Shown piece after piece: positions 1,817 to 22,220 of a DNA stretch of 64,000 nt (its first letter is position 1; every line of letters starts with the position of its first letter). The stretch is from positions 10,103-74,102 of the forward strand of contig CAZEUO010000006.1 of the NCBI GenBank assembly GCA_964515035.1, in the 5' to 3' direction. This DNA is from an uncultured Planctomycetales bacterium (GTDB lineage Bacteria > Omnitrophota > Gorgyraeia > Zapsychrales > CAZBRU01). The notes under the pieces were generated by a model, which saw only the letters and a list, made by a program, of their open reading frames with translations, had not been told where the DNA came from and did not search any database. A program made the position numbers and the translations under genes.

Positions 1817-2014
1817 ATGCAATATAAAATGAAAAAACTAGCCGAAACTTACACAGTCGAAGAAGTCGCGGAAGCTCTCAAGCTTCATCCCTATACCGTG
1901 CGCCGATTATGCAGAGAGGGCAAAATCCCAGGATTTAAATTCGGTGGGCAATGGAGATTTCAGAAAGAATCTATTAATAAATTTGTCAATTTATCAAAGA
2001 TGAAAAAACAATGA
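1817..2014 (+). CDS. small helix-turn-helix DNA-binding protein, excisionase/MerR-like (HTH_17) family; possible controller of the downstream Res-Mod operon
   Basis: 65 aa with the pattern TVEEVAEAL...YTVRRLCREGKIPGFKFGGQWRF, typical of excisionase-family HTH. Its stop overlaps the res start (ATGA). Palindromes lie in the upstream promoter region. Confidence 0.55.
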   Translation: MQYKMKKLAETYTVEEVAEALKLHPYTVRRLCREGKIPGFKFGGQWRFQKESINKFVNLSKMKKQ

Positions 2015-4977
2015 ATTCGCCTATACTTAATTCTCCATATAAAGAACCAAATTTTCATTTTAAATCAGACGAACGGGGACTTACTGACGAAGTTTTAGAA
2101 TTTCGTCGACCTAGTAGCTTTTACATCCCAGTTCCTCGTGCTAAATCAATGAAAAAACGTGCTGAACAGAACGTTGCTGAAGGCGCCTTTGGTAGTGAAT
2201 TACAAAAAGAAAACGAGTTTATTAATAAGGTCAGAGAGAAGATAAAAGAATGGCGAAATAAGGATTATTCAGGGCTTACTAAAACATCAAGAGACTTGCT
2301 TTTCTATTGGAAGGATGAGAGCCGTGACAATAAACTTTTCTTTTGCCAGGTCGAAGCACTAGAAACTTTGATGTACATTAATGAAGTGGCAGAAAAATCG
2401 GGCGAAGTCTGGATTATTAATGAATTGAAAAAAGCAGGCAAAGAAGCAAATCCAGGCCTATATCGAATTGCTTTGAAGATGGCTACTGGTTCTGGGAAGA
2501 CAGTAGTTATGGCAATGATCATTGCATATAACACTCTTAATAAAATTCGATATCCTTTAGACACAAGATTCACAGATGCCTTCGTAATAGTCACTCCCGG
2601 CATTACTATTCGTGATCGTTTAAACGTCTTGCTTCCGAACGATCCTAACAATTATTATCGTAAGCGCGACATTGTTTCTTATCAGGATTTTGAGTTGCTA
2701 CATTCAGCAACGATTTTTATAACAAATTATCATCAACTGGAACTTCGACAGAATCCAAGATTTCAGATTGGCGGAGTTATGAAAGCAACTGGGCTTATTA
2801 AAGAAGAAACAACTAAAGAAATATCATCCGCAATGGTGAATCGAGCCTTCAAAAGTGTTCTTCAAAAAACAAGAATTCTGGTAATTAATGATGAAGCTCA
2901 TCATTGCTATCGCGAGAAACCTCTTGAAGAAAAATTGTCTGGAGAGGATCGCAAAGAGGCTGATGAAAATAATAAAGCCGCACGAGTTTGGATTAATGGG
3001 TTAGAAGCATTGGCAAAAAAATTAAATGTTAATGCATTAATTGATTTGTCAGCGACACCATATTTCTTGCGCGGGTCTGGTTATCAAGAAGGCACTCTTT
3101 TTCCATGGGTCATTTATGATTTTTCTATTCTCGATGCGCTGGAATGTGGTGTTGTTAAGATACCACGACTCCCTGTCAAGTCAGATACCATTACATTGGA
3201 TGATGAACCAGAATTTCGTAATTTGTGGTTATACGTCCGTGATGATCTTCCGAAGAAGGGATTGAAAACAGGAGATTACGATCTTTCTTCATTCGCTTTG
3301 CCTACTAAACTTGCCGCGGCCTTACTTTCTCTCTATGGTAGTTATGAAAAATATTACAGAGAGTACGAAAAACAAAGAAAATTGGACCCGAATGTTATGC
3401 CTCCAGTCATGATAGTCGTTTGTAACAATACAACAGTTTCAGAGATTGTTTATCGTTGGATTGCTGGATATGAGCGAGAAACAGCGAGTGGAAAAATAAA
3501 AATTGAGAAAGGTAATCTTGAAATATTTCGCAATGAAGATGGCACCCAATTTTTTGATCGGCCAAATACTCTATTAATTGATAGTGCTCAACTTGAGAGT
3601 GGTGAAAAAATAAACGACGAGTTTAAAAAGATATTTTTGAAAGAGACAGAAGATTTTCACAAAGAATACAAGCGCCGGTTCCCGGGCCGTGATGATCCTA
3701 CTGATGAAGAATTACTTCGTGAAGTTATGAACACTGTTGGTAAACCTGAGAAACTGGGTGAAAATATTAAATGCGTGGTAAGCGTTTCGATGCTTACTGA
3801 AGGCTGGGATGTTAATACGGTGACCCACATTTTAGGAATACGTGCATTTTCTACACAACTTCTTTGTGAGCAGGTCGTCGGTCGGGCTCTTCGACGAATC
3901 GATTACAATATTGATGAAGATACCGGCATGATGACTCCCGAATATGCCGAAGTGTATGGGGTTCCGTTTAGTTTCCTACGAGTTGAAGGCAATGTTACTC
4001 CGCAGCCCCCTAAAGTGTTTCATCGGGTTCGGGGCCTTCCTGAGCGAGAAAAATATGAAATTACTTTTCCACGCGTGGAAGGTTATCGATATGAACTTAA
4101 TGAAACAAAATTGGCGGCTAATTTTACCGAAGAATCAAAAATTATCATTGAGAACGAGCCGATGGAGGTTGTTTCAGAAGGCGTTGTTGGCTATGGGACA
4201 ATAGAAACTTTGGAAAAAATTAAAGAGCGTCGAGAAGGTGAAGTGATTATTCGCCTGACTGAGGGACTTTTGAAGCGTTATTATGTTGATGCCGACGGTA
4301 CTGAAAAATATTGGCTTGGGCCAAAATTACGAAAAATAGTTGAGGAGTTCGTAAAGAATTATATTGTCCTTAAGGATCGTATGGTTATTGGATATTTAAG
4401 TGTTGGCACTTATTTTACAGGCGCACTGACCAAAATTCAGCAAGGAATCATTACTGAAAATATTGCCAATATAGATTCCAAGAAAATTTTACCAATATTG
4501 GTTCCTTACGATACTCTTGGATCTACTCGTTACGTGGATTTTTTGACTACACGGCCTGTGCAAGAAACAATTAAAAGTCACGTGAATTATGTAGTGGCGG
4601 ATACAAAAGAATGGGAGCAGGGAGTTGCCAAGAAACTAGAGCAGATGGAAGAGGTAATTTCTTACGTCAAAAATCAGAATTTAGGGTTTGCCATCCCTTA
4701 TGAACATGAAGGTGTGGCACGTCATTATACGCCGGATTTTGCAGCCAAGATTGAAATGCCTGATAAATCCCTTCTTAATCTTTTGATTGAGGTTACCGGA
4801 AGAAAGGATGATAAAAAAATCATGAAAATAAAAACAACTCGTGAATTTTGGATTCCTGCCGTTAATAACGATGGGCGATTTGGTCAGTGGGCACTTCTTG
4901 AAGTGCAGGATATTCATGAGACCCAAAATTTAATACGAGGTGGATTAAATAAAGGTTTTAATAATTTAGGAAAATAA
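2011..4977 (+). CDS. res: Type III restriction Res-like subunit: SF2 DEAH helicase with C-terminal PD-(D/E)xK-like nuclease region
   Basis: Motif I MATGSGKTVV; motif II VINDEAHH; motif V/VI MLTEGWDV...QVVGRALRR. C-terminal region TPDFAAKIE...LIEVTGRKD is nuclease-like. 988 aa, typical Res length. Stop is 3 nt before the mod start. Confidence 0.7.
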   Translation: MNSPILNSPYKEPNFHFKSDERGLTDEVLEFRRPSSFYIPVPRAKSMKKRAEQNVAEGAFGSELQKENEFINKVREKIKEWRNKDYSGLTKTSRDLLFYWKDESRDNKLFFCQVEALETLMYINEVAEKSGEVWIINELKKAGKEANPGLYRIALKMATGSGKTVVMAMIIAYNTLNKIRYPLDTRFTDAFVIVTPGITIRDRLNVLLPNDPNNYYRKRDIVSYQDFELLHSATIFITNYHQLELRQNPRFQIGGVMKATGLIKEETTKEISSAMVNRAFKSVLQKTRILVINDEAHHCYREKPLEEKLSGEDRKEADENNKAARVWINGLEALAKKLNVNALIDLSATPYFLRGSGYQEGTLFPWVIYDFSILDALECGVVKIPRLPVKSDTITLDDEPEFRNLWLYVRDDLPKKGLKTGDYDLSSFALPTKLAAALLSLYGSYEKYYREYEKQRKLDPNVMPPVMIVVCNNTTVSEIVYRWIAGYERETASGKIKIEKGNLEIFRNEDGTQFFDRPNTLLIDSAQLESGEKINDEFKKIFLKETEDFHKEYKRRFPGRDDPTDEELLREVMNTVGKPEKLGENIKCVVSVSMLTEGWDVNTVTHILGIRAFSTQLLCEQVVGRALRRIDYNIDEDTGMMTPEYAEVYGVPFSFLRVEGNVTPQPPKVFHRVRGLPEREKYEITFPRVEGYRYELNETKLAANFTEESKIIIENEPMEVVSEGVVGYGTIETLEKIKERREGEVIIRLTEGLLKRYYVDADGTEKYWLGPKLRKIVEEFVKNYIVLKDRMVIGYLSVGTYFTGALTKIQQGIITENIANIDSKKILPILVPYDTLGSTRYVDFLTTRPVQETIKSHVNYVVADTKEWEQGVAKKLEQMEEVISYVKNQNLGFAIPYEHEGVARHYTPDFAAKIEMPDKSLLNLLIEVTGRKDDKKIMKIKTTREFWIPAVNNDGRFGQWALLEVQDIHETQNLIRGGLNKGFNNLGK

Positions 4978-4980
4978 ATT

Positions 4981-7452
4981 ATGGGAAGAAAAAAAATAAT
5001 TACTAAAACCACTGAAGCCGCTGCAGTTACATCGTATAAGCATAAAGATAAACGTTCGCGTATTCCCACACAGGAAGAATCCGTTAAGCTTTCTGTCCGG
5101 GAAAAACAACCGGTTAAGAAAAGATACGAATATGAACCTTCACTGGATCCTCAGCTTGTTTGGTCTGGGAAGAAAGAATCCGGATCCGAACTGTCTGTTT
5201 CAACAATACCGATTTATGTTCAGGAAAAGATTGCACCAGAAGCTATCATCGCTCGTTTAAAGCAAGGATCCAAAGACGAAGCGCAATACACATTGTTTGG
5301 TGAAACAACCCAACAGCAGTTTGATAAGGCTGTAGAATTTTATAAGCACGAAGACAATTGGCAAAACCGCATGATTTTGGGAGATAGTCTTTTGGTAATG
5401 AACAGTTTGCTTGAAAAAGAAGGTATGCGTGGCAAGGTACAAACTATTTACATTGACCCGCCTTATGGAATTAAATTCGGTTCCAATTGGCAGACATCAA
5501 CTCGGAAACGTGAAGTGAAGGATAATAAAGTTGAAGATTTGGTTCGCCAGCCAGAGCAAATAAAAGCATTCCGTGATACGTGGGAGTTGGGTATTCATTC
5601 GTATCTTTCTTACTTACGTGATCGTTTAATTACCGCCAGAGAGCTCTTGACAGAAAGTGGATCATGTTTTGTACAAATTTCGGATGAAAATTTACACTTA
5701 ATTAGAAATCTAATGGATGAAGTTTTAGGGAATGAGAATTTTGTAAGTTTAATTACATTCAAAAAAACGAATCCACTAGGTGCTAGTGGATTAGGGGCAG
5801 TTTCTGATTATTTGATATGGTATGCTCGCGATATAAAACGATATAAGTTTAGAAGAATTCTTCTTGAGAAGCATCTTGGTGTTGGTGGAGTTAGTGGTTA
5901 TTCATGGATTGAGTTGCCCAATGGTAACCGACGAAGGCTTACAAGTGATGAATTTAACAATATTGATAAATTACCTAAAGATTGGCGTATTTTTGCGCCT
6001 ACAAAATTAACAGCCGCTGGGTTAACTCCTAGCTGTGTTTACCCTTTTGAATATGAAGGCGTTCGATTTACCCCAAAACAAGGATCAAGTTGGAGAACTA
6101 ATGCAGCAGGCATGGAAAAGTTAATTAGTTTGAAGAGGCTGATACGACTTGGCGATTCAATTTATCAAGTAATGTATTTTGATGATTATCCTGTTACAGA
6201 ATTGACAAATCTTTGGGACGATACTCGGGGAGAAATGGACAAGTGTTATGTTGTGCAAACTGCTACTAGAGTTATAGAGCGCTGTATACTTATGACTACT
6301 GATCCTGGCGACCTTGTTTTTGATCCAACCTGTGGTTCCGGTACAACCGCTTATGTCTCCGAGCAGTGGGGAAGGCGATGGATTACGACCGATACTTCAC
6401 GCGTTGCCCTTGCATTGGCACGTACTCGACTTATGGCCGCTAAATTTTCCTATTACACATTGAAAGATCAAAGTAATGTGCGTTCAGGATTTGAATATAA
6501 AATTGTTCCACATGTAACTTTGAAATCTTTAGCAAATGATGAGGAATCAGAACAAGAAGTCCTTTACGATCAGCCATTCGAAGATAAAGGGAAGGTTCGG
6601 GTATCCGGGCCATTTACAGTCGAGTCTCTTTCTCCCCATCGAGTTTCTGATGCGCAAGAAATGATTTCATCTGAACGATTTGCTGAAACTGTGGTTACCA
6701 ATCTTCTCAAAGCAGGGGTACAAACTGGCGAGAAAGACGCACGCTTAGAGTTCATCAACTTAGATATTTTACCTAGTGGTCCTGAAGTTCAGGCTATTGG
6801 CGAATACAAAACAAAAGATGGATTAAAAAAAATAGCTGTTGCCATTGGTCCTGAATTCGGAAGCGTTGATGATGATTTTATCCGGGATGCGGCTAAAGTA
6901 GCCAAAAAATTTGCCAATCTTTTGGTGGTCGCAGCAACGTCATTTGATGCTTCGGCATTTACCGAGCCTTCACAGATAAATGGTTTACAGATAATGAAAG
7001 TTAAAATTAATCCTGATCTTTCGATGGGTGATTTACTTAAGAAAACGGGCTCAGGCAATCTTTTCTTGGCTTTCGGCGAACCAGAAGTCAGAGTGAAACA
7101 GACAAAAGATGGATTGGTCGTTGAAATTTTGGGCGTGGATGTTTATGACCCAGTCAAAGGTCAAATCCGTTCAAGTGGAGCGGGGAATCCTGAGCATGAC
7201 ATTGCTACCTGGTTTATTGATGCCAATTACAGTGGCGAAGCATTTTTTGTAACGCATGCTTATTTTCTTGGAGAAGACAAACCCTACGAAAAATTAAAGA
7301 AAGCCCTTAAAGCAGATATAAATGAGGACGCGTGGGATACGCTGTATTCAACCGTATCTCGCCCCTTTGCCAAACCCAAAACCGGCAAAATCGCTGTTAA
7401 AGTAATTAATCATTACGGGGATGAAGTAATGAAAGTAATAGAGGTTAAATAA
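4981..7452 (+). CDS. mod: beta-class N6-adenine (or N4-C) DNA methyltransferase, Type III Mod-like, with a ~340 aa C-terminal extension
   Basis: Motif IV IYIDPPYGIKFGSNWQ precedes motif I LVFDPTCGSGTTAYV...GRRWITTD. This order is the beta-class arrangement of Type III Mod. About 290 aa of TRD-like sequence separate them. A long extra C-terminal region follows motif I. Confidence 0.75.
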   Translation: MGRKKIITKTTEAAAVTSYKHKDKRSRIPTQEESVKLSVREKQPVKKRYEYEPSLDPQLVWSGKKESGSELSVSTIPIYVQEKIAPEAIIARLKQGSKDEAQYTLFGETTQQQFDKAVEFYKHEDNWQNRMILGDSLLVMNSLLEKEGMRGKVQTIYIDPPYGIKFGSNWQTSTRKREVKDNKVEDLVRQPEQIKAFRDTWELGIHSYLSYLRDRLITARELLTESGSCFVQISDENLHLIRNLMDEVLGNENFVSLITFKKTNPLGASGLGAVSDYLIWYARDIKRYKFRRILLEKHLGVGGVSGYSWIELPNGNRRRLTSDEFNNIDKLPKDWRIFAPTKLTAAGLTPSCVYPFEYEGVRFTPKQGSSWRTNAAGMEKLISLKRLIRLGDSIYQVMYFDDYPVTELTNLWDDTRGEMDKCYVVQTATRVIERCILMTTDPGDLVFDPTCGSGTTAYVSEQWGRRWITTDTSRVALALARTRLMAAKFSYYTLKDQSNVRSGFEYKIVPHVTLKSLANDEESEQEVLYDQPFEDKGKVRVSGPFTVESLSPHRVSDAQEMISSERFAETVVTNLLKAGVQTGEKDARLEFINLDILPSGPEVQAIGEYKTKDGLKKIAVAIGPEFGSVDDDFIRDAAKVAKKFANLLVVAATSFDASAFTEPSQINGLQIMKVKINPDLSMGDLLKKTGSGNLFLAFGEPEVRVKQTKDGLVVEILGVDVYDPVKGQIRSSGAGNPEHDIATWFIDANYSGEAFFVTHAYFLGEDKPYEKLKKALKADINEDAWDTLYSTVSRPFAKPKTGKIAVKVINHYGDEVMKVIEVK

Positions 7453-7458
7453 ATAATT

Positions 7459-10400
7459 ATGAGTTCAAAATATCCAAGAGGATCCGAATGGCGCAAGTGG
7501 GATTTGCATGCACAAACCGTTCTAGATGATGGTTATATTTCGATAGGGCAATACTTAGAAGAAATAAAAGGAATCTCTCCCGAAAAATATAATGAATTGA
7601 TCAGGAGAGTTGGAACGGAAGATTTGGTGAAGAAATATGATTCCAAAGAGTATTTTTTTACAGATACTCAAGATGATGAAAAAAGAAGAGTAGAAAATTA
7701 TTCAAAATTATTTCTTAATTTTGTCGATATCTTTAATGCCCATATCGGAGTAATTGGAATTACTGATCATAATTATGAAAATCAATATTTATTAGATTGC
7801 TTGGTCCACAAGGCCAGTGATTTTAATTTTCAAGTTGTCCCCGGTGTTGAAATAAATGTTCAGGGTGTTCATATGCTTGTTTATTTTGGCGACAAACCAT
7901 ACCAGAAGACAACATATGCAGAAGGAATCAAAGCATTCTTGAGTAAAATTAATGTTACAAACAGAAAGACGAACAATATCTTAACGGTTTGCAATAAAAG
8001 CTATACGGATGTTATTAATGAAATAAAGGAACTGGAAGCAATCTTAGTTTATCCTCATTGCAATTCTTCCAATGGACTTTTCCAGGAAAGAGGCAAAACT
8101 GACCGAACACATCTCGCTGATCAATTCAATCACCAGAGTTTTAATATTTTACAGTCTAAAAATAAAGAATCCGCAGACACAGTTGTTTCCTATGTCAAAG
8201 CTAGAACAGAATTAAAATCGGGGTTGGTTTTTACTCTTGGAAGCGATGCACGCGCGTTAAAAGATATTTTAAAGCCAGATAAAGATGAGAATTATTGTTG
8301 GATTAAGGCTGATCCAACATTTGAAGGGTTAAAGCAAATCATTTATGAGCCAGATGCGAGAGTTTTTATTGGTAAAGAGCCTGAAATAGAGACTCGCGTT
8401 AGGAGCAATAGAACTAGATATATAAAATCATTATGTATCGGACAGGCTGACAAATATAACGAAGCGCATGGTATATGGTTTAAAGATGAATCCATAGAAT
8501 TTAGTAAGGAACTTGTTGCCATTATTGGGAATAAGGGAAGCGGAAAAAGTGCCATCACCGATATTATTGGGTTGCTTGGTAATAGTCATAATCAGAAATA
8601 TGGGAAACGAGATGGAAGTCGCGAAGAATTATTTTCCTTTCTAAATAAGCAAAAATTCCTAAAGCCGGGTTATGCATCGAATTTTAAGGCAGCATTGCAT
8701 TGGTATGATGGAGAGCCTGCGAAAATGGAATTAGATAAAGAAGTTGATGATAACATTCCAGAGCGCGTTGAGTATTTACCACAAAAATATCTTGAGAAAA
8801 TTTGTGCAAACATAGACGATGATGAATTTCGTGGAAGATTAAACGAGGTTATTTTTGAATATGTTAAAGAGAAATTTGATTATAAAAACCTAGAAGATTT
8901 AATTAAATATTTAACAAGTCAAGCTGATGAGGATATTAAGAATTCAAAGTTCTCTCTTCATGAAAAGAACGAAGAAATTGTTTCTGTAGAGAAAAAACTT
9001 ACAACAGATTACAAAAAGGAAATCGAAGAAAAGATTAAGATTAAAGAAGAAGAAGTTACTGCTCATAAGAAAAATAAACCTCCTCAGAAGAATGAACCAC
9101 CTCGTAACAGCGAAGCCGCAGCTACAGGAGCAGCTCAGATTGCAGATATTGAAACAAAAATCAATGACTTGATTAAGCACATTGATGGTCTTGAAGAGGA
9201 GCAAACAGCTGTTTCCAAGCAGCTTGAAGATCTTAAGCACGCAAAAGAGGCTATATCGAGGCAAGAAACAGTTTTAAAAGATTTGAAGTCTAAATATAAA
9301 TCATTTTTTGACAGTCTTGGTTTAGCGCTTGATGAGGTAATTAAGGTTTCTTTTCATTATGAGAAAATTGAAAAAATCGTAAATGGAAAAAAGACACGTT
9401 TGCAAGAAATTGAAGGTCTTTTGAGAACTGCTGAGGAAATAAATGAACTTGAAGACGATATAGTAATAAATGATGCACAAAGTAAGAGTTTAAGATTACA
9501 GTTAATCCAATTAGAAAATGGAAAGAAAAATATTATTGATCAATTAAGCAAGCCGGAACAAGAATACCAGGAATACTTGAGACAAAATTCAAAATGGGAG
9601 GCTCGCCAAAAAGAACTTGTTGGGGACGAACAGGCTCCGGTGGTTGACACGTCAAATTGGTTAAAACAAGAATTGAAAAATATTGCTGACGCGTATACTC
9701 AGAATCGGGATAGCTTAAGAAAAGAAAGAAAGAAAATCTTGAAGGACATCTTTAGTAAAAAGCAGGCATTAGTTTCGTTTTATAATTCAGTCAAAGAATC
9801 GATTGACAAAGAAATTGGAAAATATAGTGAAGATTTGGGAAGTTACAATATTGCCATTGAAGCCGGATTACGTTTTAATACGTCGTTTTATGACGAGTTC
9901 TTTAAATATATAAATCAAGGTATAAAAGGGAGTTTCTTTGGCACCGAGGATGGTAGAGGCATATTAAAAAACCTTTGTGAAGGTGTTCAGGGTTGGCAAG
10001 ATGAAAAAGATGTTGTTTCAATATTAGAAGACATAACCAATCACTTGGACAATGACCAGAGAAAAGAAGTTTTATCCGATGATCAGGCTAGGGATATTTT
10101 TAAGCAAATGAAGCAAAAGAAAGACCCTGTGGAGTTTTATGATTATCTTTTCGGGTTAGAATTTTTGCAAACAAAATATGATCTAAAAGTTGACGGTAAA
10201 GATCTTAGTCAATTATCTGCTGGAGAAAGAGGGGGATTATTGTTGATATTTTACTTAATGTTAGATAAGAAAGAGATCCCTTTGATTATCGATCAGCCAG
10301 AAGATAATCTTGATAATAAAAGTGTGTATGAAATCCTTGTTACATTTTTAAAACGAGCGAAAAAAAGACGACAAATTATTATGGTTACGCATAACCCCAA

Positions 10401-10596
10401 CTTAGCGGTTGTCGCTGATGCCGAACAAATTATTCACGTCTCAATCAATAAAAAGAATAAGAATGATTTCGATTATTATTCTGGATCAATTGAAAATTTG
10501 GAAATTAATAATCGGGTTGTCGAAATTCTTGAAGGAACTATGCCTGCTTTCAATAATCGAAGATTAAAATATCGTAAATATTCTAATGATAATTAA
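7459..10596 (+). CDS. fusion protein: N-terminal PHP (polymerase/histidinol phosphatase-like) phosphoesterase domain + Rad50/SbcC/SMC-like ABC ATPase with long internal coiled coil
   Basis: PHP-like blocks: WDLHAQT, IGITDHNYEN, VVPGVEINVQGVHM, VYPHCNSSNG, FTLGSDARA. Walker A IIGNKGSGKSAITD. A ~280 aa K/E-rich coiled coil follows. ABC signature LSAGERGG, Walker B PLIIDQPEDNLD, H-loop IMVTHNP. Starts 7 nt after the mod stop. Confidence 0.6.
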   Translation: MSSKYPRGSEWRKWDLHAQTVLDDGYISIGQYLEEIKGISPEKYNELIRRVGTEDLVKKYDSKEYFFTDTQDDEKRRVENYSKLFLNFVDIFNAHIGVIGITDHNYENQYLLDCLVHKASDFNFQVVPGVEINVQGVHMLVYFGDKPYQKTTYAEGIKAFLSKINVTNRKTNNILTVCNKSYTDVINEIKELEAILVYPHCNSSNGLFQERGKTDRTHLADQFNHQSFNILQSKNKESADTVVSYVKARTELKSGLVFTLGSDARALKDILKPDKDENYCWIKADPTFEGLKQIIYEPDARVFIGKEPEIETRVRSNRTRYIKSLCIGQADKYNEAHGIWFKDESIEFSKELVAIIGNKGSGKSAITDIIGLLGNSHNQKYGKRDGSREELFSFLNKQKFLKPGYASNFKAALHWYDGEPAKMELDKEVDDNIPERVEYLPQKYLEKICANIDDDEFRGRLNEVIFEYVKEKFDYKNLEDLIKYLTSQADEDIKNSKFSLHEKNEEIVSVEKKLTTDYKKEIEEKIKIKEEEVTAHKKNKPPQKNEPPRNSEAAATGAAQIADIETKINDLIKHIDGLEEEQTAVSKQLEDLKHAKEAISRQETVLKDLKSKYKSFFDSLGLALDEVIKVSFHYEKIEKIVNGKKTRLQEIEGLLRTAEEINELEDDIVINDAQSKSLRLQLIQLENGKKNIIDQLSKPEQEYQEYLRQNSKWEARQKELVGDEQAPVVDTSNWLKQELKNIADAYTQNRDSLRKERKKILKDIFSKKQALVSFYNSVKESIDKEIGKYSEDLGSYNIAIEAGLRFNTSFYDEFFKYINQGIKGSFFGTEDGRGILKNLCEGVQGWQDEKDVVSILEDITNHLDNDQRKEVLSDDQARDIFKQMKQKKDPVEFYDYLFGLEFLQTKYDLKVDGKDLSQLSAGERGGLLLIFYLMLDKKEIPLIIDQPEDNLDNKSVYEILVTFLKRAKKRRQIIMVTHNPNLAVVADAEQIIHVSINKKNKNDFDYYSGSIENLEINNRVVEILEGTMPAFNNRRLKYRKYSNDN

Positions 10597-10621: not shown

Positions 10622-11119
10622 GTGGAAATTGAAATGTTTTCGAGAAAAAGAATAGAAGATTATCTTAAGAAAATTGAAAAGAGGTTTTTTATCGCTCCAC
10701 GCCAAAAGTTTAGTTTCTCCGAAAATTGGTTTCAGGAAATACCCTTGGAAGCTGGTATTTACGGTATTTTTAATCAAAATAAACTCATCTATATAGGGGA
10801 AACCGGTTCTCTTCGCGGAAGGATGCGTGATTTGGGAAGAACGGTTAATCATCAATTCCGAAGAAGTGTTGGGAAAAATATGTTCTCTCGTGTAAAAGGA
10901 TTCGAGGAAGCGAGCAGTAGAAAGAAATTTCCTCTTAACATTGAAAAAAAGCTAAATAAATGGATGGAACAAAAACTTGAAATCGCTGTTTTGCCAATTT
11001 TGTTTGGAAGAAAGGAAATTGAAGAATATATCTGTAAAGAATATAAACCAAAATGCAATACACGAGTTAAAAGGGAATGTAGAAAGATAAATGAAAATCA
11101 TCGAAATTTATCACTGTAA
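10622..11119 (+). CDS. GIY-YIG nuclease domain protein (standalone, 165 aa)
   Basis: GIYGIFNQNKLIYIGETGSLRGRMRDL matches the GIY...YIG...R core. Only a 25 nt gap follows the ATPase gene, with no terminator. Start may be GTG at 10622 or ATG at 10634. Confidence 0.6.
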   Translation: MEIEMFSRKRIEDYLKKIEKRFFIAPRQKFSFSENWFQEIPLEAGIYGIFNQNKLIYIGETGSLRGRMRDLGRTVNHQFRRSVGKNMFSRVKGFEEASSRKKFPLNIEKKLNKWMEQKLEIAVLPILFGRKEIEEYICKEYKPKCNTRVKRECRKINENHRNLSL

Positions 11120-11516
11120 TGTTAAAACTAAGCGGAAGCTGCCAATGTTTCTTTCAAGAGTTCGCGCCGGGTTTCCGTCCCCCGCAGATGATTACCTCGA
11201 CAAGAAACTGGACTTAAACGAACATCTGATTAAGCATCCCGCCGCTACTTTTTTTGTCAAAGTCAAAGGCGATTCGATGATAAAGGCGGGAATTAATTCG
11301 GGAGATATTCTGGTAGTTGATCGTTCGCTTGAACCAAAAGATAAGAAAATTGTTGTGGCGATACTAAATGGAGAGTTTACGGTCAAGCGAGTGCGAAAGA
11401 TGAAGGACAAATTATATCTGGTTTCAGAAAATGACGATTATCTGCCTATTGAAATCAAAGATGACGCGGAGTTTGAGATTTGGGGAGTAGTTGCCCATGT
11501 TATCCACTCAGTCTGA
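11091..11516 (+). CDS. umuD: UmuD (S24 LexA-like self-cleaving peptidase, TLS polymerase V accessory subunit)
   Basis: RAGFPSPADDYL...KVKGDSMIKAGINSGDILVVD aligns to the E. coli UmuD cleavage site (CG/FPSP) and the catalytic Ser (GDSM). Lys is in the C-terminal part. The full-length N-terminal arm is present if the start is 11091. Confidence 0.75.
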   Translation: MKIIEIYHCNVKTKRKLPMFLSRVRAGFPSPADDYLDKKLDLNEHLIKHPAATFFVKVKGDSMIKAGINSGDILVVDRSLEPKDKKIVVAILNGEFTVKRVRKMKDKLYLVSENDDYLPIEIKDDAEFEIWGVVAHVIHSV

Positions 11517-12810
11517 CAAAAAAGTTTTTGCCTTAGTTGACTGCAATAGTTTTTACGTTTCCTGCGAAAAAGTTTTTCATCCTTCCGTAAACAACAAGCC
11601 AGTTGTTGTGCTTTCCAATAATGACGGTTGCGCTATCTCACGCTCGAATGAAGCCAAGCGGATCGGTATTGGCATGGGTGCTCCTATATTCAAATGTCAG
11701 GATATTGTTAAACAACATGATGTGAAGGTTTTCTCAGCTAATTTTGTCCTCTATGGCGATATGTCTAATCGGGTTATGGCTGTGCTTTCGAATTTTACAC
11801 CGAATCTTGAAATCTATTCGATTGATGAAGCTTTCCTTTTATTAAACGGCTTTGAACACTTGAATCTTGAGGACTATGCACGCAAGATTAAGGGAGAGGT
11901 TAAAAAACAAACCGGAATCCCTGTCTCAATTGGTGTTGCGCCGACCAAAACTTTGGCGAAAGTTGCTAATCATTATGCCAAAGACCATCCGGAAGCAAAT
12001 GGGGTATTTACCTTAATGGATGATGATAAGATTGAGCGTATCTTGTCACAAACACCGGTTAGAGAGATTTGGGGCATCGGTAAAGAAAAGGCCATATTCT
12101 TGGAACGACACGGCATAAAAACAGCGTTTGAATTACGAAATACCAGTGATGAATGGATCAAGAAACATCTGACTATCGTTACCCTACGCACGGTTTGGGA
12201 ATTAAGAGGAACCCCGTGTTTGTCTCTGGAAAAGGTGCAACCCAATAAGAAAGCCATTGCAACAACCAGAACTTTTGGTTATGAAGTTAATTGTTTGGCG
12301 GAAATGGAAGAGGCGGTCGCGGCGTATGTCAGCCGTTCGGCAGAGAAGTTAAGAAAACAAAAATCACTGGCCAGTTACATTCAAGTGTTTATTGAGACTA
12401 ATCCTTTCAAAGACACGCCTTACTATCGGAATTCAGCCGGAACGGATGTTAATCCACCAACGGCCTACACACCAAGATTGATTGAAGTTGCTAAGGAGCT
12501 TTTAAAACGTATTTACCGAGATGGCTTACGCTATAAAAGCTGTGGAGTCTTTTTAATGAATCTTTGCCCTCAAACGAACGAACAGGATTATTTGTTTGAA
12601 GAAAAATATCAAGGAAGCTCACGAGAAAGGCTCATGCAGATTATGGATCGTTATAATCGCGGTGCTAATAGCGGAAAACTTTTTATGGCCGCTGAAGGGT
12701 TGGGTAAGCCATGGTTTATGAAACAAGCGCATAAATCCAAGCGATTCACAACACGGTGGGACGAACTGTTAACAATAAACCTTGAAAGGAATAAAAATGC
12801 CACCAAGTGA
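11491..12810 (+). CDS. umuC: UmuC / Y-family translesion DNA polymerase V catalytic subunit
   Basis: N-terminus FALVDCNSFYVSCEKVFHP...PVVVLSNNDGCAI is near-canonical UmuC. Overlaps umuD as in umuDC operons. Confidence 0.85.
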   Translation: MPMLSTQSDKKVFALVDCNSFYVSCEKVFHPSVNNKPVVVLSNNDGCAISRSNEAKRIGIGMGAPIFKCQDIVKQHDVKVFSANFVLYGDMSNRVMAVLSNFTPNLEIYSIDEAFLLLNGFEHLNLEDYARKIKGEVKKQTGIPVSIGVAPTKTLAKVANHYAKDHPEANGVFTLMDDDKIERILSQTPVREIWGIGKEKAIFLERHGIKTAFELRNTSDEWIKKHLTIVTLRTVWELRGTPCLSLEKVQPNKKAIATTRTFGYEVNCLAEMEEAVAAYVSRSAEKLRKQKSLASYIQVFIETNPFKDTPYYRNSAGTDVNPPTAYTPRLIEVAKELLKRIYRDGLRYKSCGVFLMNLCPQTNEQDYLFEEKYQGSSRERLMQIMDRYNRGANSGKLFMAAEGLGKPWFMKQAHKSKRFTTRWDELLTINLERNKNATK

Positions 12811-13126
12811 GAGGTCAATGCAAATTGCTGGAAAATTCTCTGAATATGCAAAATCTGGTGACGATGCTTTAATACAAAATTTTACGGAAAATGAAATTAA
12901 GTTAACATTAATACAATATGCGCAAGATAAGAGATTTCCTCATTACAGTGCAATGGAAATGCAATTGCAAAAACTACAAGAACAAAAAAGAGAGTTATTA
13001 AGCCAGAATGAAAGAGAAGCAGAAAGGAAAGAAGGCTATAAAAATGGATTGATTACAGGCATTATTAGCGGTGTAATTGGTGGGATTATTTTAGCTGTAA
13101 TTTTGAAATTATTGGGATTAGGATAA
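12782..13126 (+). CDS. hypothetical small protein with C-terminal transmembrane helix
   Basis: 114 aa with coiled-coil-like middle and hydrophobic C-terminus GLITGIISGVIGGIILAVILKLLGLG. No recognisable family. Confidence 0.3.
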   Translation: MKGIKMPPSERSMQIAGKFSEYAKSGDDALIQNFTENEIKLTLIQYAQDKRFPHYSAMEMQLQKLQEQKRELLSQNEREAERKEGYKNGLITGIISGVIGGIILAVILKLLGLG

Positions 13127-13128
13127 TT

Positions 13129-13791
13129 ATGTGCGGACGATATTCACAAACAAAATCCAAGCAGGATATTAAAAAGCGGTTCAATCTTAAGAAAGTCCCG
13201 GATGAAATGGGACCCCTTTTTAATATTGCGCCAGATTCAAATGTGCCAGTTATCTTAAATGAATCATCAGATGAAATAACTTTGGCAAGATGGGGGCTTG
13301 TGCCTTCATGGTCAAAAGAGGAGGAGTCACCTTATAGTATGATAAACGCAAGGGCAGAGACAATCTTAGAAAAGCCTTCCTACAAAAGGCTGATTAAAAA
13401 TAAACGCTGTTTGATCATTGCCGATTCGTTCTACGAATGGAAAAAAGTAAAAGGTAAAAAATTCCCTCACAGGATCATGCTTGAAAGCGAAGACTTATTC
13501 GCTTTTGCAGGATTATGGGATCTCTGGGAAGGAAATGGCAATTCCTTAATTAGCTGTTCCATTATTACTACGACCCCCAATAAGCTTTGTGTTACGATTC
13601 ATGACAGGATGCCAGTCATTTTGCCAAGAGAAAGAGAGAAAGACTGGCTGTCTGATATTACCGTTGAGGATGCCATTAAACTTCTTCAACCCTGCGCCGA
13701 TGGCATGAAATGCTGTGAAATTTCCTTAAAAATCAACAATCCTCAAAACAATTCTCCCGACGTGATTTTACCGTTCAAAAGCCAACCTTAA
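13129..13791 (+). CDS. SOS-response-associated peptidase (SRAP/YedK family), abasic-site DNA-protein crosslinking protein
   Basis: Begins MCGRYS (invariant Cys2 nucleophile of SRAP). About 220 aa, with the WGLVPSW motif. Confidence 0.85.
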   Translation: MCGRYSQTKSKQDIKKRFNLKKVPDEMGPLFNIAPDSNVPVILNESSDEITLARWGLVPSWSKEEESPYSMINARAETILEKPSYKRLIKNKRCLIIADSFYEWKKVKGKKFPHRIMLESEDLFAFAGLWDLWEGNGNSLISCSIITTTPNKLCVTIHDRMPVILPREREKDWLSDITVEDAIKLLQPCADGMKCCEISLKINNPQNNSPDVILPFKSQP

Positions 13792-17779: not shown

Positions 17780-18173
17780 ATATTTGTTATTAGCCTTAAT
17801 ACTTCCGGTACTTATTGGTTGTGCTAACAAACTGGCTTACGTTTCAACCGGAAGCCTCATTGGAGCCGGGGGCGGGTATGCCATTGACCGTGACAGCAAG
17901 GACGCTGCTATTGGCGGGTTAGTTGGGGGAACGACCGGAGCCATACTAGCAGACATCCATAAAAAAAGTGAAAATAAAAAGTACCAAGATGGTTACGATC
18001 AAGGGTATACCCAAGCCCAGCTTGAAATTGCTAAAAGTAACTGGGATGAAAATACCGGCAAACAAAAGAAGGATGTTACTTCAAAATCTTATGAGCGGAT
18101 TAAAATCCCTAAAAAAGAAGTCAATGATGTGCTCTATGATTCGCATTATGAAACGCTGGAGGTGTACAAATGA
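17766..18173 (+). CDS. lipoprotein with glycine-zipper motif (possible VirB7-like / T4SS-associated)
   Basis: Lipobox LIGC after signal peptide. GSLIGAGGGYAID...GGLVGGTTGAILA glycine zipper. The upstream ORF start (17724) overlaps virB4, so the 17766 ATG is preferred. Confidence 0.45.
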   Translation: MRSFKYLLLALILPVLIGCANKLAYVSTGSLIGAGGGYAIDRDSKDAAIGGLVGGTTGAILADIHKKSENKKYQDGYDQGYTQAQLEIAKSNWDENTGKQKKDVTSKSYERIKIPKKEVNDVLYDSHYETLEVYK

Positions 18174-18895
18174 AAAAACTTATGGTTTTTGCGATTATTC
18201 TCATGTTGAGCCCGCGGCCTGCGTGGGCTGATTCGACCTGGGCGGTCTTACAGCAAACCAGCATCCAGACAGCTGAGCATCTAAAAAGGGTTCAGGAAGC
18301 GATTAAGATGGTTCAGCTGCTTCAAACCCAGGTTCACGATGTCCAGGATCTTCTTAAATTGGCAGTCAGGGCCAGTGAAGGCTTGGAGGGCGTTGAGTTT
18401 ATAAGCGATTTCAGGAACCTGGCGATTGAAACCAACGACCTGATTGGAGAAATTCGAGAGTATATCGAATATGACAAACCCATTGGAGAAGAATGGCTGA
18501 ATCTCTTTGGAAAAATCGGGAACTGGATCGAAGACTCAAATGAAATCTTTAAAAATATTAAAATGTCCGATTCGGTCAATGCCAGAAGTTTTAATATTGC
18601 CGATAGCTACCATGACAAATATCAGGAAAATTCAGAATACGCTGAGCAATTAGTTGCGAATTCGAAAACAGTCAATGAAAAAGGCGCGTTAAAACAGATA
18701 GCGGAAGAGATGGGCCACCTCATGCAGATGCAAAATCAAGAAATTTATTTACTCTCCGAGATCCTCAGATCGCAAAGTGTCGAATACTCCAACGAAAATC
18801 TGAAGCGCAAGGAAGATGCCATCAAATTTGAGCAGGAAAATAAAGGGATAAAGCGTTTTATAAGCATGTCAATCGACGACCAATTCGAGTTATAG
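18170..18895 (+). CDS. secreted alpha-helical protein, VirB5/TrbJ-like candidate
   Basis: Signal peptide MKKLMVFAIILMLSPRPAWA. Coiled-coil-rich. Position matches VirB5 between B4 and B6. Confidence 0.35.
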   Translation: MKKLMVFAIILMLSPRPAWADSTWAVLQQTSIQTAEHLKRVQEAIKMVQLLQTQVHDVQDLLKLAVRASEGLEGVEFISDFRNLAIETNDLIGEIREYIEYDKPIGEEWLNLFGKIGNWIEDSNEIFKNIKMSDSVNARSFNIADSYHDKYQENSEYAEQLVANSKTVNEKGALKQIAEEMGHLMQMQNQEIYLLSEILRSQSVEYSNENLKRKEDAIKFEQENKGIKRFISMSIDDQFEL

Positions 18896-18899
18896 AGCT

Positions 18900-22206: not shown

Positions 22207-22220
22207 GGGAGGATAAATCA

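What the first reader, a model, noticed from the sequence alone, without database searches (positions are those of the whole stretch)
7459..10596. PHP phosphoesterase fused to an SMC/Rad50-type ATPase; PHP metal-site motifs look partly substituted
Read directly from the translation:
- The first PHP motif is DLHAQT, where canonical PHP domains have HxH.
- The last is GSDARA, where many PHP domains have GSDAH.
- The TDH and GvE blocks are present.

This suggests either a variant metal site or a catalytically altered PHP domain that may serve a structural or sensor role. The ATPase half has an intact Walker A, signature LSAGERGG, Walker B IIDQPED and H-loop THNP, so it is predicted ATP-binding and dimerising. 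The nuclease function may instead be supplied by the adjacent GIY-YIG or by the Res PD-(D/E)xK region.
Basis: partly seen in the sequence, partly recalled or inferred. Interest (0 to 1): 0.7.

Follow-up and report, generated by a model that had tools for sequence, protein, structure and literature searches.

The report
Defence ATPase with altered PHP domain
This gene encodes a known but uncharacterised type of bacterial defence protein (TrlF, a relative of the anti-phage protein Ppl) that sits beside restriction-modification genes on a mobile element. Its nuclease-like PHP domain belongs to a widespread sub-group in which two or three of the nine metal-binding residues have been replaced by glutamine and arginine and then kept by selection.

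Summary

Against the nine-ligand PHP set (H H D H E H H D H) it reads H17 Q19 D23 H104 E131 H138 H200 D263 R265.

The changes are not private decay:
- Among 112 cluster representatives, 33 have QxQ...DxR, 26 HxH...DxR, 7 QxQ...DxH and 3 HxQ...DxR (the window). Only 2 are canonical.
- E. coli Ppl and the plasmid TrlFs examined are canonical.
- The domain is under purifying selection (pN 0.10 against pS 0.68).
- It has been swapped as a cassette onto a different ATPase body.

TrlF genes lie directly downstream of restriction-modification systems of many types. Here the partner is a Type III-like Res-Mod pair on an integrative conjugative element.

Whether the variant pocket still catalyses or only binds a ligand cannot be decided computationally.

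The Walker B catalytic Glu is naturally Gln (DQPE) across the family.

Verdict: a new variant of a known kind, of moderate interest.

The parts
2011..4977 (+). Res-like gene: BPTD_3080-family restriction endonuclease with a ResIII helicase domain. First gene of the operon.
   Evidence: NCBIfam NF046055 scores 1086 bits against a cut-off of 800. Pfam ResIII matches. The C-terminus gives only a weak RE_endonuc/TnsA-like hit below cut-off. A 71%-identical homologue sits upstream of a type-B TrlF in L001.
4981..7452 (+). Mod-like gene: Type III-like N6/N4 DNA methyltransferase. It starts 3 nt after the Res stop.
   Evidence: Pfam N6_N4_Mtase matches at E 1.7e-29. PADLOC MTase_III scores 733 bits.
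7459..10596 (+). TrlF-family protein (1045 aa): PHP domain plus ABC ATPase with a coiled-coil insert. It starts 6 nt after the Mod stop.
   Evidence: NF045780 scores 578.8 bits against a cut-off of 350. The Ppl model scores 114.5 bits against a cut-off of 1000. More than 6000 homologues were found.
7459..8280 (+). PHP domain cassette (aa 1-274), a seven-stranded beta/alpha barrel of the 'type B' clade.
7498..7518 (+). PHP motif I, WDLHAQT: ligand 1 is H17 and ligand 2 is replaced by Q19. It is followed by D23/D24 (ligand 3).
   Evidence: Alignment with canonical Ppl/TrlF. Position 19 is Gln in all 22 type-B proteins among the 120 listed hits. Position 17 is Gln in 19 of them and His in 3.
7537..7743 (+). 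Helical insert of roughly 70 aa (aa 27-95) between strand 1 and strand 2. It is specific to the type-B clade and contains the conserved KKYDSKxYFFTD.
   Evidence: The model shows helices 33-39, 41-51, 54-60, 63-68 and 74-92. The TrlF HMM aligns only from aa 87. More distant relatives match only from query residues about 64-97 onward, at target residues about 24-57.
7759..7776 (+). PHP motif II, ITDHNY: ligand 4 is H104.
   Evidence: H104 is invariant in the 102-sequence alignment A2.
7840..7881 (+). PHP motif III, PGVEINVQGVHMLV: ligand 5 is E131 (bridging) and ligand 6 is H138.
   Evidence: E131 is invariant and H138 is at least 90% conserved.
8050..8109 (+). PHP motif IV plus a clade-specific loop, YPHCNSSNGLFQERGKTDRT. 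Ligand 7 is H200. N202 replaces the Asp found in Ppl and the HxH clades.
   Evidence: H200 is invariant. G206-G212, D215, R216 and T217 are invariant and N205 and T214 nearly so within type B.
8236..8256 (+). PHP motif V, LGSDARA: ligand 8 is D263 and ligand 9 is replaced by R265.
   Evidence: D263 is invariant. Position 265 is Arg in 22 of 22 type-B proteins among the 120 listed hits. Among 112 representatives it is Arg in 64 and Lys in 6.
8296..8352 (+). Junction segment CWIKADPTFEGLKQIIYEP. It is conserved in all TrlF types and is the apparent boundary of the swapped PHP cassette.
   Evidence: P0003 and similar proteins match the N-domain query only from aa 275 onward, at about 66% identity. 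The block is conserved.
8527..8550 (+). Walker A, GNKGSGKS (aa 357-364).
   Evidence: Position. The identical motif occurs in 101 of 218 relatives, and other GxxGxGK[ST] forms in further relatives.
8773..8790 (+). Probable Q-loop, YLPQKY (Q442).
   Evidence: Position. A Gln at least 90% conserved (column 813) occurs in alignment A2. The assignment to the Q-loop is by position and is inferred.
8791..10203 (+). Insert of about 470 aa between the two halves of the ATPase head, probably an antiparallel coiled coil. It has no CxxC zinc hook.
   Evidence: It gives weak coiled-coil-type Pfam hits and an SMC_prok_B alignment over aa 490-794. The only Cys residues are at 449 and 840. No structure was predicted for this part.
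10213..10236 (+). ABC signature motif, LSAGERGG (aa 919-926).
   Evidence: It aligns to the Rad50 signature LSGGER. The commonest family forms are LSPGER (99) and LSPGEK (26) of 218.
10279..10314 (+). Walker B and D-loop, PLIIDQPEDNLD. D945 is the Walker B Asp, Q946 sits at the catalytic-Glu position, and E948 is conserved.
   Evidence: HMMER aligns 'iidqped' to Rad50 'LILDEPT'. DQPE occurs in 204 of 218 relatives (Gln at that position in 206) and in E. coli Ppl.
10381..10401 (+). H-loop, MVTHNPN (H978).
   Evidence: It aligns to Rad50 'VSHD'. VTHN occurs in 161 of 218 relatives.
10622..11119 (+). Small GIY-YIG protein (165 aa), 25 nt downstream of TrlF. It is probably co-transcribed here but is not a conserved TrlF partner.
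   Evidence: Pfam GIY-YIG scores 30 bits. No homologue is detected (tblastn, E <= 1e-5) in any of the other loci fetched by then, and the gene downstream of the closest relative is unrelated.

Best explanation
**What is shown**

The ORF is a TrlF-family protein. It has the same architecture as the anti-phage protein Ppl: an N-terminal PHP barrel, then a Rad50/SMC-like ABC ATPase head split by a long coiled-coil insert. It is the third, tightly spaced gene of a Type III-like Res-Mod operon carried on an integrative conjugative element.

Its PHP domain belongs to a phylogenetically widespread clade ('type B'). In this clade ligand positions 1 and 2 (HxH) have become Gln, and position 9 (the His of DxH) has become Arg. 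The window is a rare intermediate that keeps His at position 1. Ligands 3-8, a further set of pocket residues and the fold are strictly conserved. The domain is under purifying selection and has moved as a cassette between TrlF bodies.

**What is inferred**

The pocket is a remodelled but functional site rather than a dead one.
- The inner metal site (E131, H138, H200) is intact.
- The Arg265 guanidinium probably fills the outermost metal position.
- Gln19 weakens or re-tunes the middle site.
- The domain would therefore bind one or two metal ions rather than three.

By analogy with Ppl, a 3'-5' ssDNA exonuclease gated by NTPs and 3'-OH ends, the protein most likely dimerises through ATP-bound heads. 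It would then engage DNA ends and process or sense them through the PHP pocket. The ends could be those made by the neighbouring restriction enzyme. The result is a second-line or cooperating effector of the restriction-modification system.
For: **Family and architecture**
- NF045780 scores 579 bits against a cut-off of 350. Homology to the Ppl model extends over the N-domain and the C-terminal head.
- The closest PDB sequence matches for the C-terminal head are Rad50 and SMC.

**PHP fold**
- The AlphaFold2 model has pLDDT 95.
- The top 22 Foldseek hits are all PHP domains.
- Relatives pass the Pfam PHP threshold: P0266 46.7 bits, P0045 37.8 bits, P0169 29.6 bits.

**Ligand map**
- The nine-position scheme comes from PMC3666897 Table 1.

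**Clade-wide, non-random substitutions**
- Q19 and R265 are present in 22 of 22 type-B proteins among the 120 listed hits.

**Pocket conservation**
- The invariant residues lie at the C-terminal ends of strands 1-7.

**Purifying selection**
- In the PHP domain pN is 0.10 and pS is 0.68, giving dN/dS of about 0.06.

**Cassette swap**
- Shown: **Linkage to restriction-modification systems**
- A Res+Mod pair sits upstream in the window, L001 and L010. Other loci have MmeI (L006), an Eco57I-type enzyme (L008, L016), Type ISP (L015, L022, L031), HsdR (L018), Type I (L003) and helicase+MTase+TrlF on E. coli pVE769 (L036).

**Ppl mechanism**
- Taken from the review PMC12904381, and from Xu et al., Mol Cell 2026, as cited in PMC13434339.
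Against: - By the published rule for C-family polymerases, any deviation from HHDHEH[C/H]DH marks a PHP domain as 'inactive' (PMC12926913). The window deviates at 2 of 9 positions and most of its clade at 3 of 9.
- E. coli Pol III alpha has Arg at the same position 9. That Arg occupies a metal site, and the domain is catalytically inactive and structural (PMC3666897).
- No TrlF protein has been characterised experimentally in the literature I could search.
- Some TrlF genes stand alone on plasmids (L033, L034). The link to restriction-modification systems is therefore frequent but not obligatory. Cooperation with the restriction enzyme is inferred only from gene neighbourhood.
- The Res protein probably has its own nuclease (weak hit), so a TrlF nuclease is not needed for restriction itself.
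Confidence: 0.5

Rival explanations
1. The variant PHP domain has lost catalysis. It serves instead as a structural or ligand-sensing module, for example binding NTPs or a DNA 3' end to gate the ATPase. DNA cleavage is left to the Res subunit or to host nucleases.
For: - Two of nine ligands are replaced in the window and three of nine in most of the clade.
- The replacements are Gln, Gln and Arg, plus Asp->Asn at position 202. This 'amidated' pocket suits hydrogen bonding to phosphates or bases.
- E. coli Pol III alpha has Arg at position 9 filling a metal site in an inactive, structural PHP domain (PMC3666897).
- In Ppl, NTPs bind the PHP domain as inhibitors (PMC12904381). A purely sensing derivative is therefore a small evolutionary step.
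- Res carries a weak endonuclease-domain signal.
Against: - The whole inner site (E131, H138, H200) plus D263, H104 and D15 stay invariant across sequences that are only 27-82% identical. In inactive polymerase PHP domains the substitutions are described as non-conserved (PMC12926913).
- The combinations HxH/DxR, QxQ/DxH and QxQ/DxR all exist. This pattern looks like tuning of a working site.
- TrlF proteins of this clade also occur without an adjacent nuclease gene, for example L032 and L021.
Confidence: 0.38
2. The adjacent GIY-YIG protein (10622-11119) is the dedicated nuclease partner that compensates for a defective PHP domain.
For: The GIY-YIG domain is real: Pfam scores 30 bits at E 6e-7. 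The gene starts 25 nt after the trlF stop, on the same strand.
Against: - No homologue of it is detected (tblastn, E <= 1e-5) in any of the other TrlF loci fetched by then, including the type-B loci L001 and L006-L022.
- The gene downstream of the 82%-identical relative is unrelated.
- Its 3' end overlaps umuD by 29 nt, so it could equally belong to the umuDC cargo.
Confidence: 0.05
3. The substitutions are private decay of a degenerating gene, or an artefact of misplacing the motifs, or the N-terminus is not a PHP fold at all.
For: Pfam PHP does not hit the window protein itself. A PDB profile search with the N-domain finds no PHP protein by sequence.
Against: - The reading frame is intact, and pN is far below pS.
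- The same residues are fixed in dozens of cluster representatives from many phyla.
- The motifs align column for column with canonical Ppl and TrlF.
- The fold search returns PHP domains.
Confidence: 0.02

Closest known systems
TrlF family AAA-like ATPase (NCBIfam NF045780), e.g. WP_053320759.1 on E. coli plasmid pVE769 and WP_145389874.1 on S. aureus pSALNBL75
   Same: - The window protein scores above the family cut-off.
- The domain order is the same, with the shared junction motif WIKADPTFEGLKQ, the DQPE Walker B and the VTHN H-loop.
- The pVE769 copy likewise follows a helicase gene and a methylase gene.
   Different: - Those plasmid members have all nine canonical PHP ligands. The window has Gln at position 2 and Arg at position 9, plus a helical insert of roughly 70 aa after strand 1.
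- I found no experimental work on any TrlF protein.
Ppl anti-phage protein (E. coli, NF042955; Xu et al., Mol Cell 2026, cited in PMC13434339)
   Same: - It has the same PHP domain plus NTPase with a long insert, and the same DQPE Walker B.
- Homology extends over the N-domain and the C-terminal head.
- It is a defence-associated gene on mobile elements.
- Its PHP domain is a 3'-5' ssDNA exonuclease inhibited by NTPs (PMC12904381), which provides the working model used here.
   Different: - The window scores 114.5 bits against Ppl's cut-off of 1000, so it is not a Ppl orthologue.
- Ppl has the canonical HHDHEHHDH set.
- Ppl acts as a single gene, whereas this gene is embedded in a restriction-modification operon.
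Variant (metal-free) PHP domain of E. coli DNA polymerase III alpha (PDB 2hnh; Barros et al. 2013, PMC3666897)
   Same: [quoted passage not shown]
- Arg replaces the His at ligand position 9 and occupies a metal position.
- It shows that a PHP scaffold can survive ligand loss.
   Different: - Pol III alpha has lost 5 of 9 ligands, including the bridging Glu. The window has lost 2 and keeps the whole inner site.
- The context is different: a replicase compared with a defence ATPase.
Endonuclease Q (PfuEndoQ, PDB 5zb8)
   Different: - Sequence identity is only 15%.
- EndoQ is a lesion-specific repair endonuclease and has no ATPase.
- From my own knowledge, EndoQ has a canonical zinc site and extra Zn-finger and helical domains. 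This was not tested here.
Rad50/SbcC and SMC ABC ATPases
   Same: - The C-terminal head aligns to Rad50 and SMC.
- The head is split by a long insert, with Walker A, Q-loop, signature, Walker B Asp, D-loop and H-loop in the same order.
   Different: - Gln sits at the catalytic Glu position.
- There is no CxxC zinc hook.
- The nuclease-like domain is fused in cis instead of being a separate Mre11/SbcD subunit.
PrrC/RloC anticodon nucleases and PARIS (AriA/AriB): ABC-ATPase-based defence modules that back up restriction systems
   Same: - They are ABC ATPases combined with a nuclease-type effector.
- AriA appears among the PADLOC and PDB hits.
- From my own knowledge, PrrC and RloC are encoded inside Type I restriction-modification loci and fire when restriction is blocked. 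This is a possible logic for a TrlF linked to such systems.
   Different: - The effector domains are different: an anticodon nuclease or Toprim rather than PHP.
- Similarity is confined to the generic ABC head.
- The guard logic is only an analogy for TrlF and was not tested.

Membership tests
TrlF family AAA-like ATPase (NF045780) | Whole-protein HMM score at or above the curated cut-off of 350 bits | tested here: met
   The score is 578.8 bits at E 3.3e-173. The alignment covers aa 87-1039 and profile positions 33-944. The first 86 aa do not align, because of the type-B motif I and helical insert.
TrlF family AAA-like ATPase (NF045780) | Architecture: N-terminal PHP-like domain, WIKADPTFEGLKQ junction, then an ABC ATPase head split by a long insert | tested here: met
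   Supported. All PHP variants tested (QxQ/DxR, HxH/DxR, QxQ/DxH, canonical, type A) score above the TrlF cut-off.
PHP domain superfamily | Seven-stranded distorted beta/alpha barrel fold | tested here: met
PHP domain superfamily | Match to Pfam PF02811 above the gathering score | tested here: not met
   The window protein gives no PHP hit at E <= 0.1. Relatives within the same NCBIfam family do pass: P0266 46.7 bits, P0045 37.8 bits, P0169 29.6 bits, against a gathering score of 26.4.
Catalytically competent ('active') PHP domain as defined for polymerases | All nine metal ligands present: HHDHEH[C/H]DH (PMC12926913; PMC3666897 Table 1) | tested here: not met
   The window reads H17 Q19 D23 H104 E131 H138 H200 D263 R265, which is 7 of 9. 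Most of the clade has 6 of 9.
Catalytically competent ('active') PHP domain as defined for polymerases | Metal binding and phosphoesterase or nuclease activity | not testable with these tools
   This needs biochemistry or a metal-bound structure.
Ppl anti-phage protein (NF042955) | Whole-protein HMM score at or above 1000 bits | tested here: not met
   The score is 114.5 bits. The PADLOC Ppl model scores 79.9 bits. The window protein is a homologue, not an orthologue.
Ppl anti-phage protein (NF042955) | Protects against phage as a single gene; 3'-5' ssDNA exonuclease relieved by NTP depletion | not testable with these tools
   The mechanism is known only from the literature (PMC12904381; Xu et al. 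2026, cited in PMC13434339).
Rad50/SMC-type ABC ATPase | Walker A, Q-loop, signature motif, Walker B Asp, D-loop and H-loop in order, with the head split by an insert | tested here: met
   The motifs are GNKGSGKS 357-364, Q442, LSAGERGG 919-926, D945, D952 and H978.
Rad50/SMC-type ABC ATPase | Catalytic Glu immediately after the Walker B Asp | tested here: not met
   Gln946 aligns to the Glu of Rad50 'LILDEPT'. The engineered EttA E->Q mutants (reading 'LLLDQPT'; that they are E->Q mutants is my own knowledge) are among the best PDB sequence hits. Gln occupies this position in 206 of 218 relatives. A conserved Glu lies two residues later (E948) and its role is unknown.
Rad50/SMC-type ABC ATPase | Zinc hook (CxxC) or hinge at the coiled-coil apex | tested here: not met
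   There is no CxxC motif. The only Cys residues in the insert are at 449 and 840. The structure of the insert was not predicted.
Type III restriction-modification system (operon context) | Res with a superfamily-2 helicase domain plus an N6/N4 Mod methyltransferase, adjacent and co-oriented | tested here: met
   Res matches ResIII and NF046055. Mod matches N6_N4_Mtase and PADLOC MTase_III at 733 bits. The gap between the two genes is 3 nt.
Type III restriction-modification system (operon context) | PD-(D/E)xK endonuclease domain at the Res C-terminus | tested here: inconclusive
   RE_endonuc scores 18.5 bits against a cut-off of 23.4. A TnsA-like N-terminal domain scores 17.6 bits. No PDB homologue is found by sequence.

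The most novel reading that the evidence does not exclude
The Gln-Gln-Arg ('QxQ...DxR') PHP pocket may be a distinct, functional active-site configuration not yet described for the PHP superfamily. It would be a one- or two-metal centre in which an arginine stands in for the third metal ion. It would give restriction-linked TrlF proteins a different substrate or metal specificity from Ppl, for example Mg2+-dependent end processing or nucleotide sensing. TrlF proteins as a class would then be exchangeable 'end-effector' modules that plug into restriction-modification systems of any type.
Probability: 0.3. Interest if true: 0.7.

Novelty: new variant of a known kind. Interest (0 to 1): 0.45.

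Why it matters
- PHP domains are usually scored as active or dead by whether all nine metal ligands are present. Here a large, horizontally spread clade of defence proteins keeps a specific non-canonical set (Gln, Gln, Arg) under purifying selection. It even swaps the set as a cassette between proteins. The clade is therefore a natural test of whether PHP chemistry can run with fewer metals, or whether the scaffold has been re-used as a sensor.
- TrlF is common. More than 6000 homologues were scored. A PHP N-domain query matched 823 plasmid records whose listed hits are annotated TrlF or Ppl, and 634 of those records are predicted conjugative. Yet the family has no published function.
- Its repeated position directly downstream of Type I, IIG/IIL, ISP and III-like restriction-modification systems suggests a general accessory role in restriction-based immunity.
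- Working out that role would extend the recently solved Ppl mechanism to a much larger family.

Tried and rejected
1. Pfam scan of the window protein found no PHP hit. A PDB sequence-profile search with the N-domain returned only a spurious BlaI-type repressor hit. Sequence methods alone therefore fail for this clade. Fold search, and transitive homology through canonical relatives, were needed.
2. The first AlphaFold2 run used a 17-sequence alignment and was poor: pLDDT 64, with residues 200-315 unreliable. I spent one fold search on it. A 102-sequence alignment fixed the problem.
3. Literature searches for 'TrlF' and 'BPTD_3080' found nothing relevant. I guessed that the name derives from the H. 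pylori 'trl' locus, but that led nowhere.
4. Exact look-up of the window protein in the contig index found no record. Its cluster carries no name or accession. The source organism therefore remains unknown. The ICE gene content and a GC content near 40% only suggest Bacteroidota, and that is my own impression.
5. GIY-YIG as a conserved partner was rejected.
6. No Ppl structure was found in the PDB copy, either by fold or by sequence.
7. Profile-profile alignment of type B against type A N-domains shows homology at 98.6% probability. However, it disagrees with MAFFT about which type-A segment is strand 2. I therefore treat the type-A ligand map (HxH, DY, E, N, DxH) as tentative.
8. Model coordinates are not exposed to the scripting tool, so distances around Gln19 and Arg265 could not be measured.

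Full report
**1. The observation**

The ORF at 7459-10596 (+) is intact and encodes 1045 aa.
- WDLHAQT (aa 14-20)
- ITDHNY (101-106)
- PGVEINVQGVH (128-138)
- LGSDARA (260-266)
- Walker A GNKGSGKS (357-364)
- signature LSAGERGG (919-926)
- IIDQPED (943-949)
- THNP (977-980)

**2. Identity**

NCBIfam places the protein in the 'TrlF family AAA-like ATPase' (NF045780) at 578.8 bits against a cut-off of 350. It gives much weaker, sub-threshold matches to the sister families Spaf_1101 and Ppl; Ppl scores 114.5 bits against a cut-off of 1000. Pfam sees only the ABC head (SMC_N, AAA_21) and no PHP domain. The C-terminal head aligns best to Rad50 and SMC chains in the PDB. A word-indexed search found more than 6000 homologues.

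**3. Is the N-terminus a PHP domain?**

Sequence profiles alone do not show it.
- An AlphaFold2 model of residues 1-315, built on a 102-sequence alignment, is confident (pLDDT 95.2, pTM 0.92).
- The 22 best Foldseek PDB hits are all PHP domains.
- Relatives inside the same NCBIfam family pass the Pfam PHP threshold.
- One relative, P0266, aligns by sequence to RNase AM and Cv1693 through motifs I to III.

The fold is therefore established.

**4. The ligand map**

Barros et al. (PMC3666897, Table 1) number the nine PHP metal ligands 1-9, with the consensus H H D/H H E H C/H D/N H.
- An L-INS-i alignment with E. coli Ppl (WP_015059139.1), E. coli pVE769 TrlF, S. aureus plasmid TrlF and other canonical members gives H17, Q19, D23 (or D24), H104, E131, H138, H200, D263 and R265 for the window.
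Position 2 is Gln and position 9 is Arg.
- The metal-to-ligand assignment rests on my own knowledge of YcdX and HPP. It is consistent with Table 1 of PMC3666897, where R203 (position 9) replaces the outermost metal and R10 (position 1) the second.
- On that assignment the inner site (E131, H138, H200) is complete. The middle site (H17, Q19, E131, D263) lacks one His. The outer site (D23, H104, R265) lacks one His and gains a cation-mimicking Arg.

**5. The substitutions define a clade**

Among the 120 listed hits (the best of more than 6000):
- 22 share the window's N-domain type. Of these, 19 read QxQ...DxR and 3 read HxQ...DxR.
- Most of the others read HxH...DxH.

An exhaustive phmmer search with the N-domain against 1.84 billion cluster representatives gave 1521 hits at E <= 1e-3, 275 at E <= 1e-10 and 42 at E <= 1e-30. 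Of the 150 best hits listed, the 111 of at least 560 aa, plus the window protein, give these ligand patterns:

| Pattern | Count |
|---|---|
| QxQ...DxR | 33 |
| HxH...DxR | 26 |
| 'Type A' pattern (HxH, DY, E, N, DxH) | 25 |
| QxQ...DxH | 7 |
| HxH...DxK | 4 |
| HxQ...DxR (the window's rare intermediate) | 3 |
| Fully canonical | 2 |

- All these variants still score as TrlF.
- Across the 102-sequence alignment (27-82% identity to the window), W11, D15, H104, E131, H200, D263 and K283 are invariant, and H138 is at least 90% conserved.
- Within the window's clade the invariant residues cluster at the C-terminal ends of the seven strands. They include clade-specific polar residues N105, Y106, N133, C201, N202, N229 and Q232.
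- Asp at the 202 position in Ppl and the HxH clades is Asn here. The pocket has therefore been 'amidated' at three places.
- Against the gene of the 82%-identical relative, pN is 0.10 and pS is 0.68 in the PHP domain. This gives dN/dS of about 0.06, with dS near saturation.
- The clade occurs in candidate-phyla-radiation (CPR) bacteria, Bacteroidota, Gammaproteobacteria, Spirochaetota, Ignavibacteria, Armatimonadota and archaea.

This is a maintained variant, not decay.

**6. Cassette swapping**

- Residues 1-270 of the window protein are 54-72% identical to other type-B proteins, but only 16-36% identical to P0003 and P0004.
- Residues 300-1045 are 50-96% identical to P0003 and P0004, but only 16-66% identical to the other type-B proteins, apart from the last two 50-residue windows, which are conserved in every comparison.
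- The boundary is the universally conserved segment CWIKADPTFEGLKQIIYEP (aa 280-298).
- The PHP module has therefore been exchanged between TrlF bodies, as effector modules often are in defence genes.

**7. Genomic context**

In the window, Res (2011-4977, BPTD_3080 family, ResIII helicase), Mod (4981-7452, N6_N4 methylase), TrlF and a small GIY-YIG gene are separated by 3, 6 and 25 nt. The same Res-Mod-TrlF trio occurs in L001, at 71%, 67% and 56%/39% identity.

Other type-B TrlF genes lie directly downstream of:
- an MmeI-family enzyme (L006)
- Eco57I/MmeI-like enzymes (L008, L016)
- a helicase+MTase+Res set (L010)
- Type ISP enzymes (L015, L022, L031)
- HsdR (L018)
- an SNF2 helicase plus a PLD nuclease (L007)

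Type-A or canonical members follow a Type I system (L003), an MTase plus a T5orf172 protein (L005), and a helicase plus methylase on E. coli pVE769 (L036). Some members are solitary on plasmids (L033, L034).

The GIY-YIG gene recurs (tblastn, E <= 1e-5) in none of the other loci fetched by then. Res itself shows only a weak endonuclease-domain signal.

The first 26 kb of the window is an integrative conjugative element:
- VirB4/TraC, VirB6, VirB8, VirB9 and VirB10 homologues
- a coupling protein
- a tyrosine integrase at 25011-26210, abutting tRNA-Met at 26233-26306
- lower GC content than the flanking DNA

**8. The ATPase**

- Walker A, the probable Q-loop, the signature motif, the Walker B Asp, the D-loop and the H-loop are all present.
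- HMMER aligns 'IIDQPED' to Rad50 'LILDEPT'. Gln946 therefore occupies the catalytic-Glu position.
- The engineered EttA E->Q mutants (reading 'LLLDQPT'; that they are E->Q mutants is my own knowledge) are among the best PDB sequence hits.
- DQPE is found in 204 of 218 relatives (Gln at that position in 206) and in Ppl. A conserved Glu lies two residues later.
- ATP binding and head engagement are plausible. The hydrolysis rate is an open question.
- The insert of about 470 aa has no CxxC hook.

**9. How it most likely works**

Shown: the protein is a Ppl-like PHP/ABC-ATPase with a conserved non-canonical pocket, linked to a restriction-modification system and carried on a mobile element.

Inferred, by analogy with Ppl:
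- Ppl is a 3'-5' ssDNA exonuclease that needs 3'-OH ends and relief from NTP inhibition at both its PHP and NTPase domains (PMC12904381; Xu et al. 2026, cited in PMC13434339).
- TrlF probably dimerises on nucleotide binding and engages DNA ends. Its PHP pocket then either processes those ends with a reduced metal complement, with Arg265 standing in for the outer metal, or only senses an end or a nucleotide.
- Its position after restriction-modification systems of every type suggests two possible roles. It may act on restriction-generated ends, or it may back up restriction when that is blocked.

I put about 0.5 on a still-catalytic remodelled site and about 0.38 on a non-catalytic sensor or structural role. 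The main evidence for the second reading is that E. coli Pol III alpha has Arg at position 9 in a metal site of an inactive domain (PMC3666897), together with the 'any deviation means inactive' rule (PMC12926913).

**10. Novelty**

- The family is already named by NCBI, and Ppl is characterised, so the kind is known.
- I found no description of the QxQ/DxR PHP clade, of the cassette swapping, or of the general linkage of TrlF to restriction-modification systems.
- I rate this a new variant of a known kind, with moderate interest (0.45).

Noticed in passing
window 10279-10314 (aa 941-952): The Walker B motif reads D-Q-P-E. Gln946 aligns with the catalytic Glu of Rad50. This is the same change as the engineered E->Q trap mutants of ABC ATPases. 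It is family-wide (Gln at this position in 206 of 218 relatives) and shared with E. coli Ppl, and a conserved Glu lies two residues later.
   Followed up: partly
window 7459-8352; junction at 8296-8352: The protein is a mosaic. The PHP cassette (aa 1-270) resembles one set of relatives, and the ATPase body (aa 300-1045) resembles another set that carries a different PHP type. The break is at the universally conserved WIKADPTFEGLKQ segment.
   Followed up: yes
window 1-26537: The restriction-modification/TrlF operon is cargo of an integrative conjugative element. T4SS genes span 14972-24211, and a tyrosine integrase at 25011-26210 is followed directly by tRNA-Met (26233-26306) and tRNA-Val (26461-26537). 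GC content is 35-43% here and about 45% beyond 26 kb. The trlF region has the lowest GC content (34.6%).
   Followed up: partly
window 11091-13791: Immediately after the defence genes lie umuD (11091-11516), umuC (11491-12810) and an SRAP (SOS-response-associated peptidase) gene (13129-13791). This is a DNA-damage-tolerance cargo block on the same element.
   Followed up: no
window 10622-11119: A small GIY-YIG protein with a GTG start lies 25 nt after trlF, and its 3' end overlaps umuD by 29 nt. No homologue was detected next to any other TrlF gene examined.
   Followed up: partly
L001 13198-14421; L031 11129-12313; L016 13950-15233: A DUF2130 gene recurs next to type-B TrlF genes. In L031 its start overlaps the TrlF stop. 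L016 carries a downstream gene homologous to the L031 copy (its Pfam family was not scanned). The window itself has none.
   Followed up: partly
plasmid collection (e.g. L035 NZ_MT621569.1 10213-12888; L036 NZ_AP018353.1 84312-87167): A PHP N-domain query from a relative (P0173) matched 823 plasmid records. The hits listed are annotated TrlF or Ppl, they are mostly from Enterobacteriaceae, and 634 of the records are predicted conjugative. The Ppl and TrlF proteins I translated and aligned (E. coli Ppl, E. coli pVE769 TrlF, S. aureus TrlF) have canonical PHP ligands.
   Followed up: partly
type-A relatives such as P0003 and P0005 compared with window aa 58-106: The majority 'type A' TrlF N-domain also seems non-canonical (HxH, TDY, E, N-x-H, DxH). 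However, hhalign pairs its 'ITDYF' with the window's insert motif 'YDSKEYFF', whereas MAFFT pairs it with 'ITDHNY'. The ligand map of type A is therefore unresolved.
   Followed up: partly
L016 6093-9848: An MmeI/Eco57I-like restriction-modification gene upstream of a type-B TrlF carries a Pfam Y1_Tnp (IS200-like transposase) match inside it, at aa 604-665.
   Followed up: no
window 14972-64000: Every ORF of at least 200 aa listed from 14972 onward is on the + strand, and cumulative GC skew rises monotonically across the whole window.
   Followed up: no
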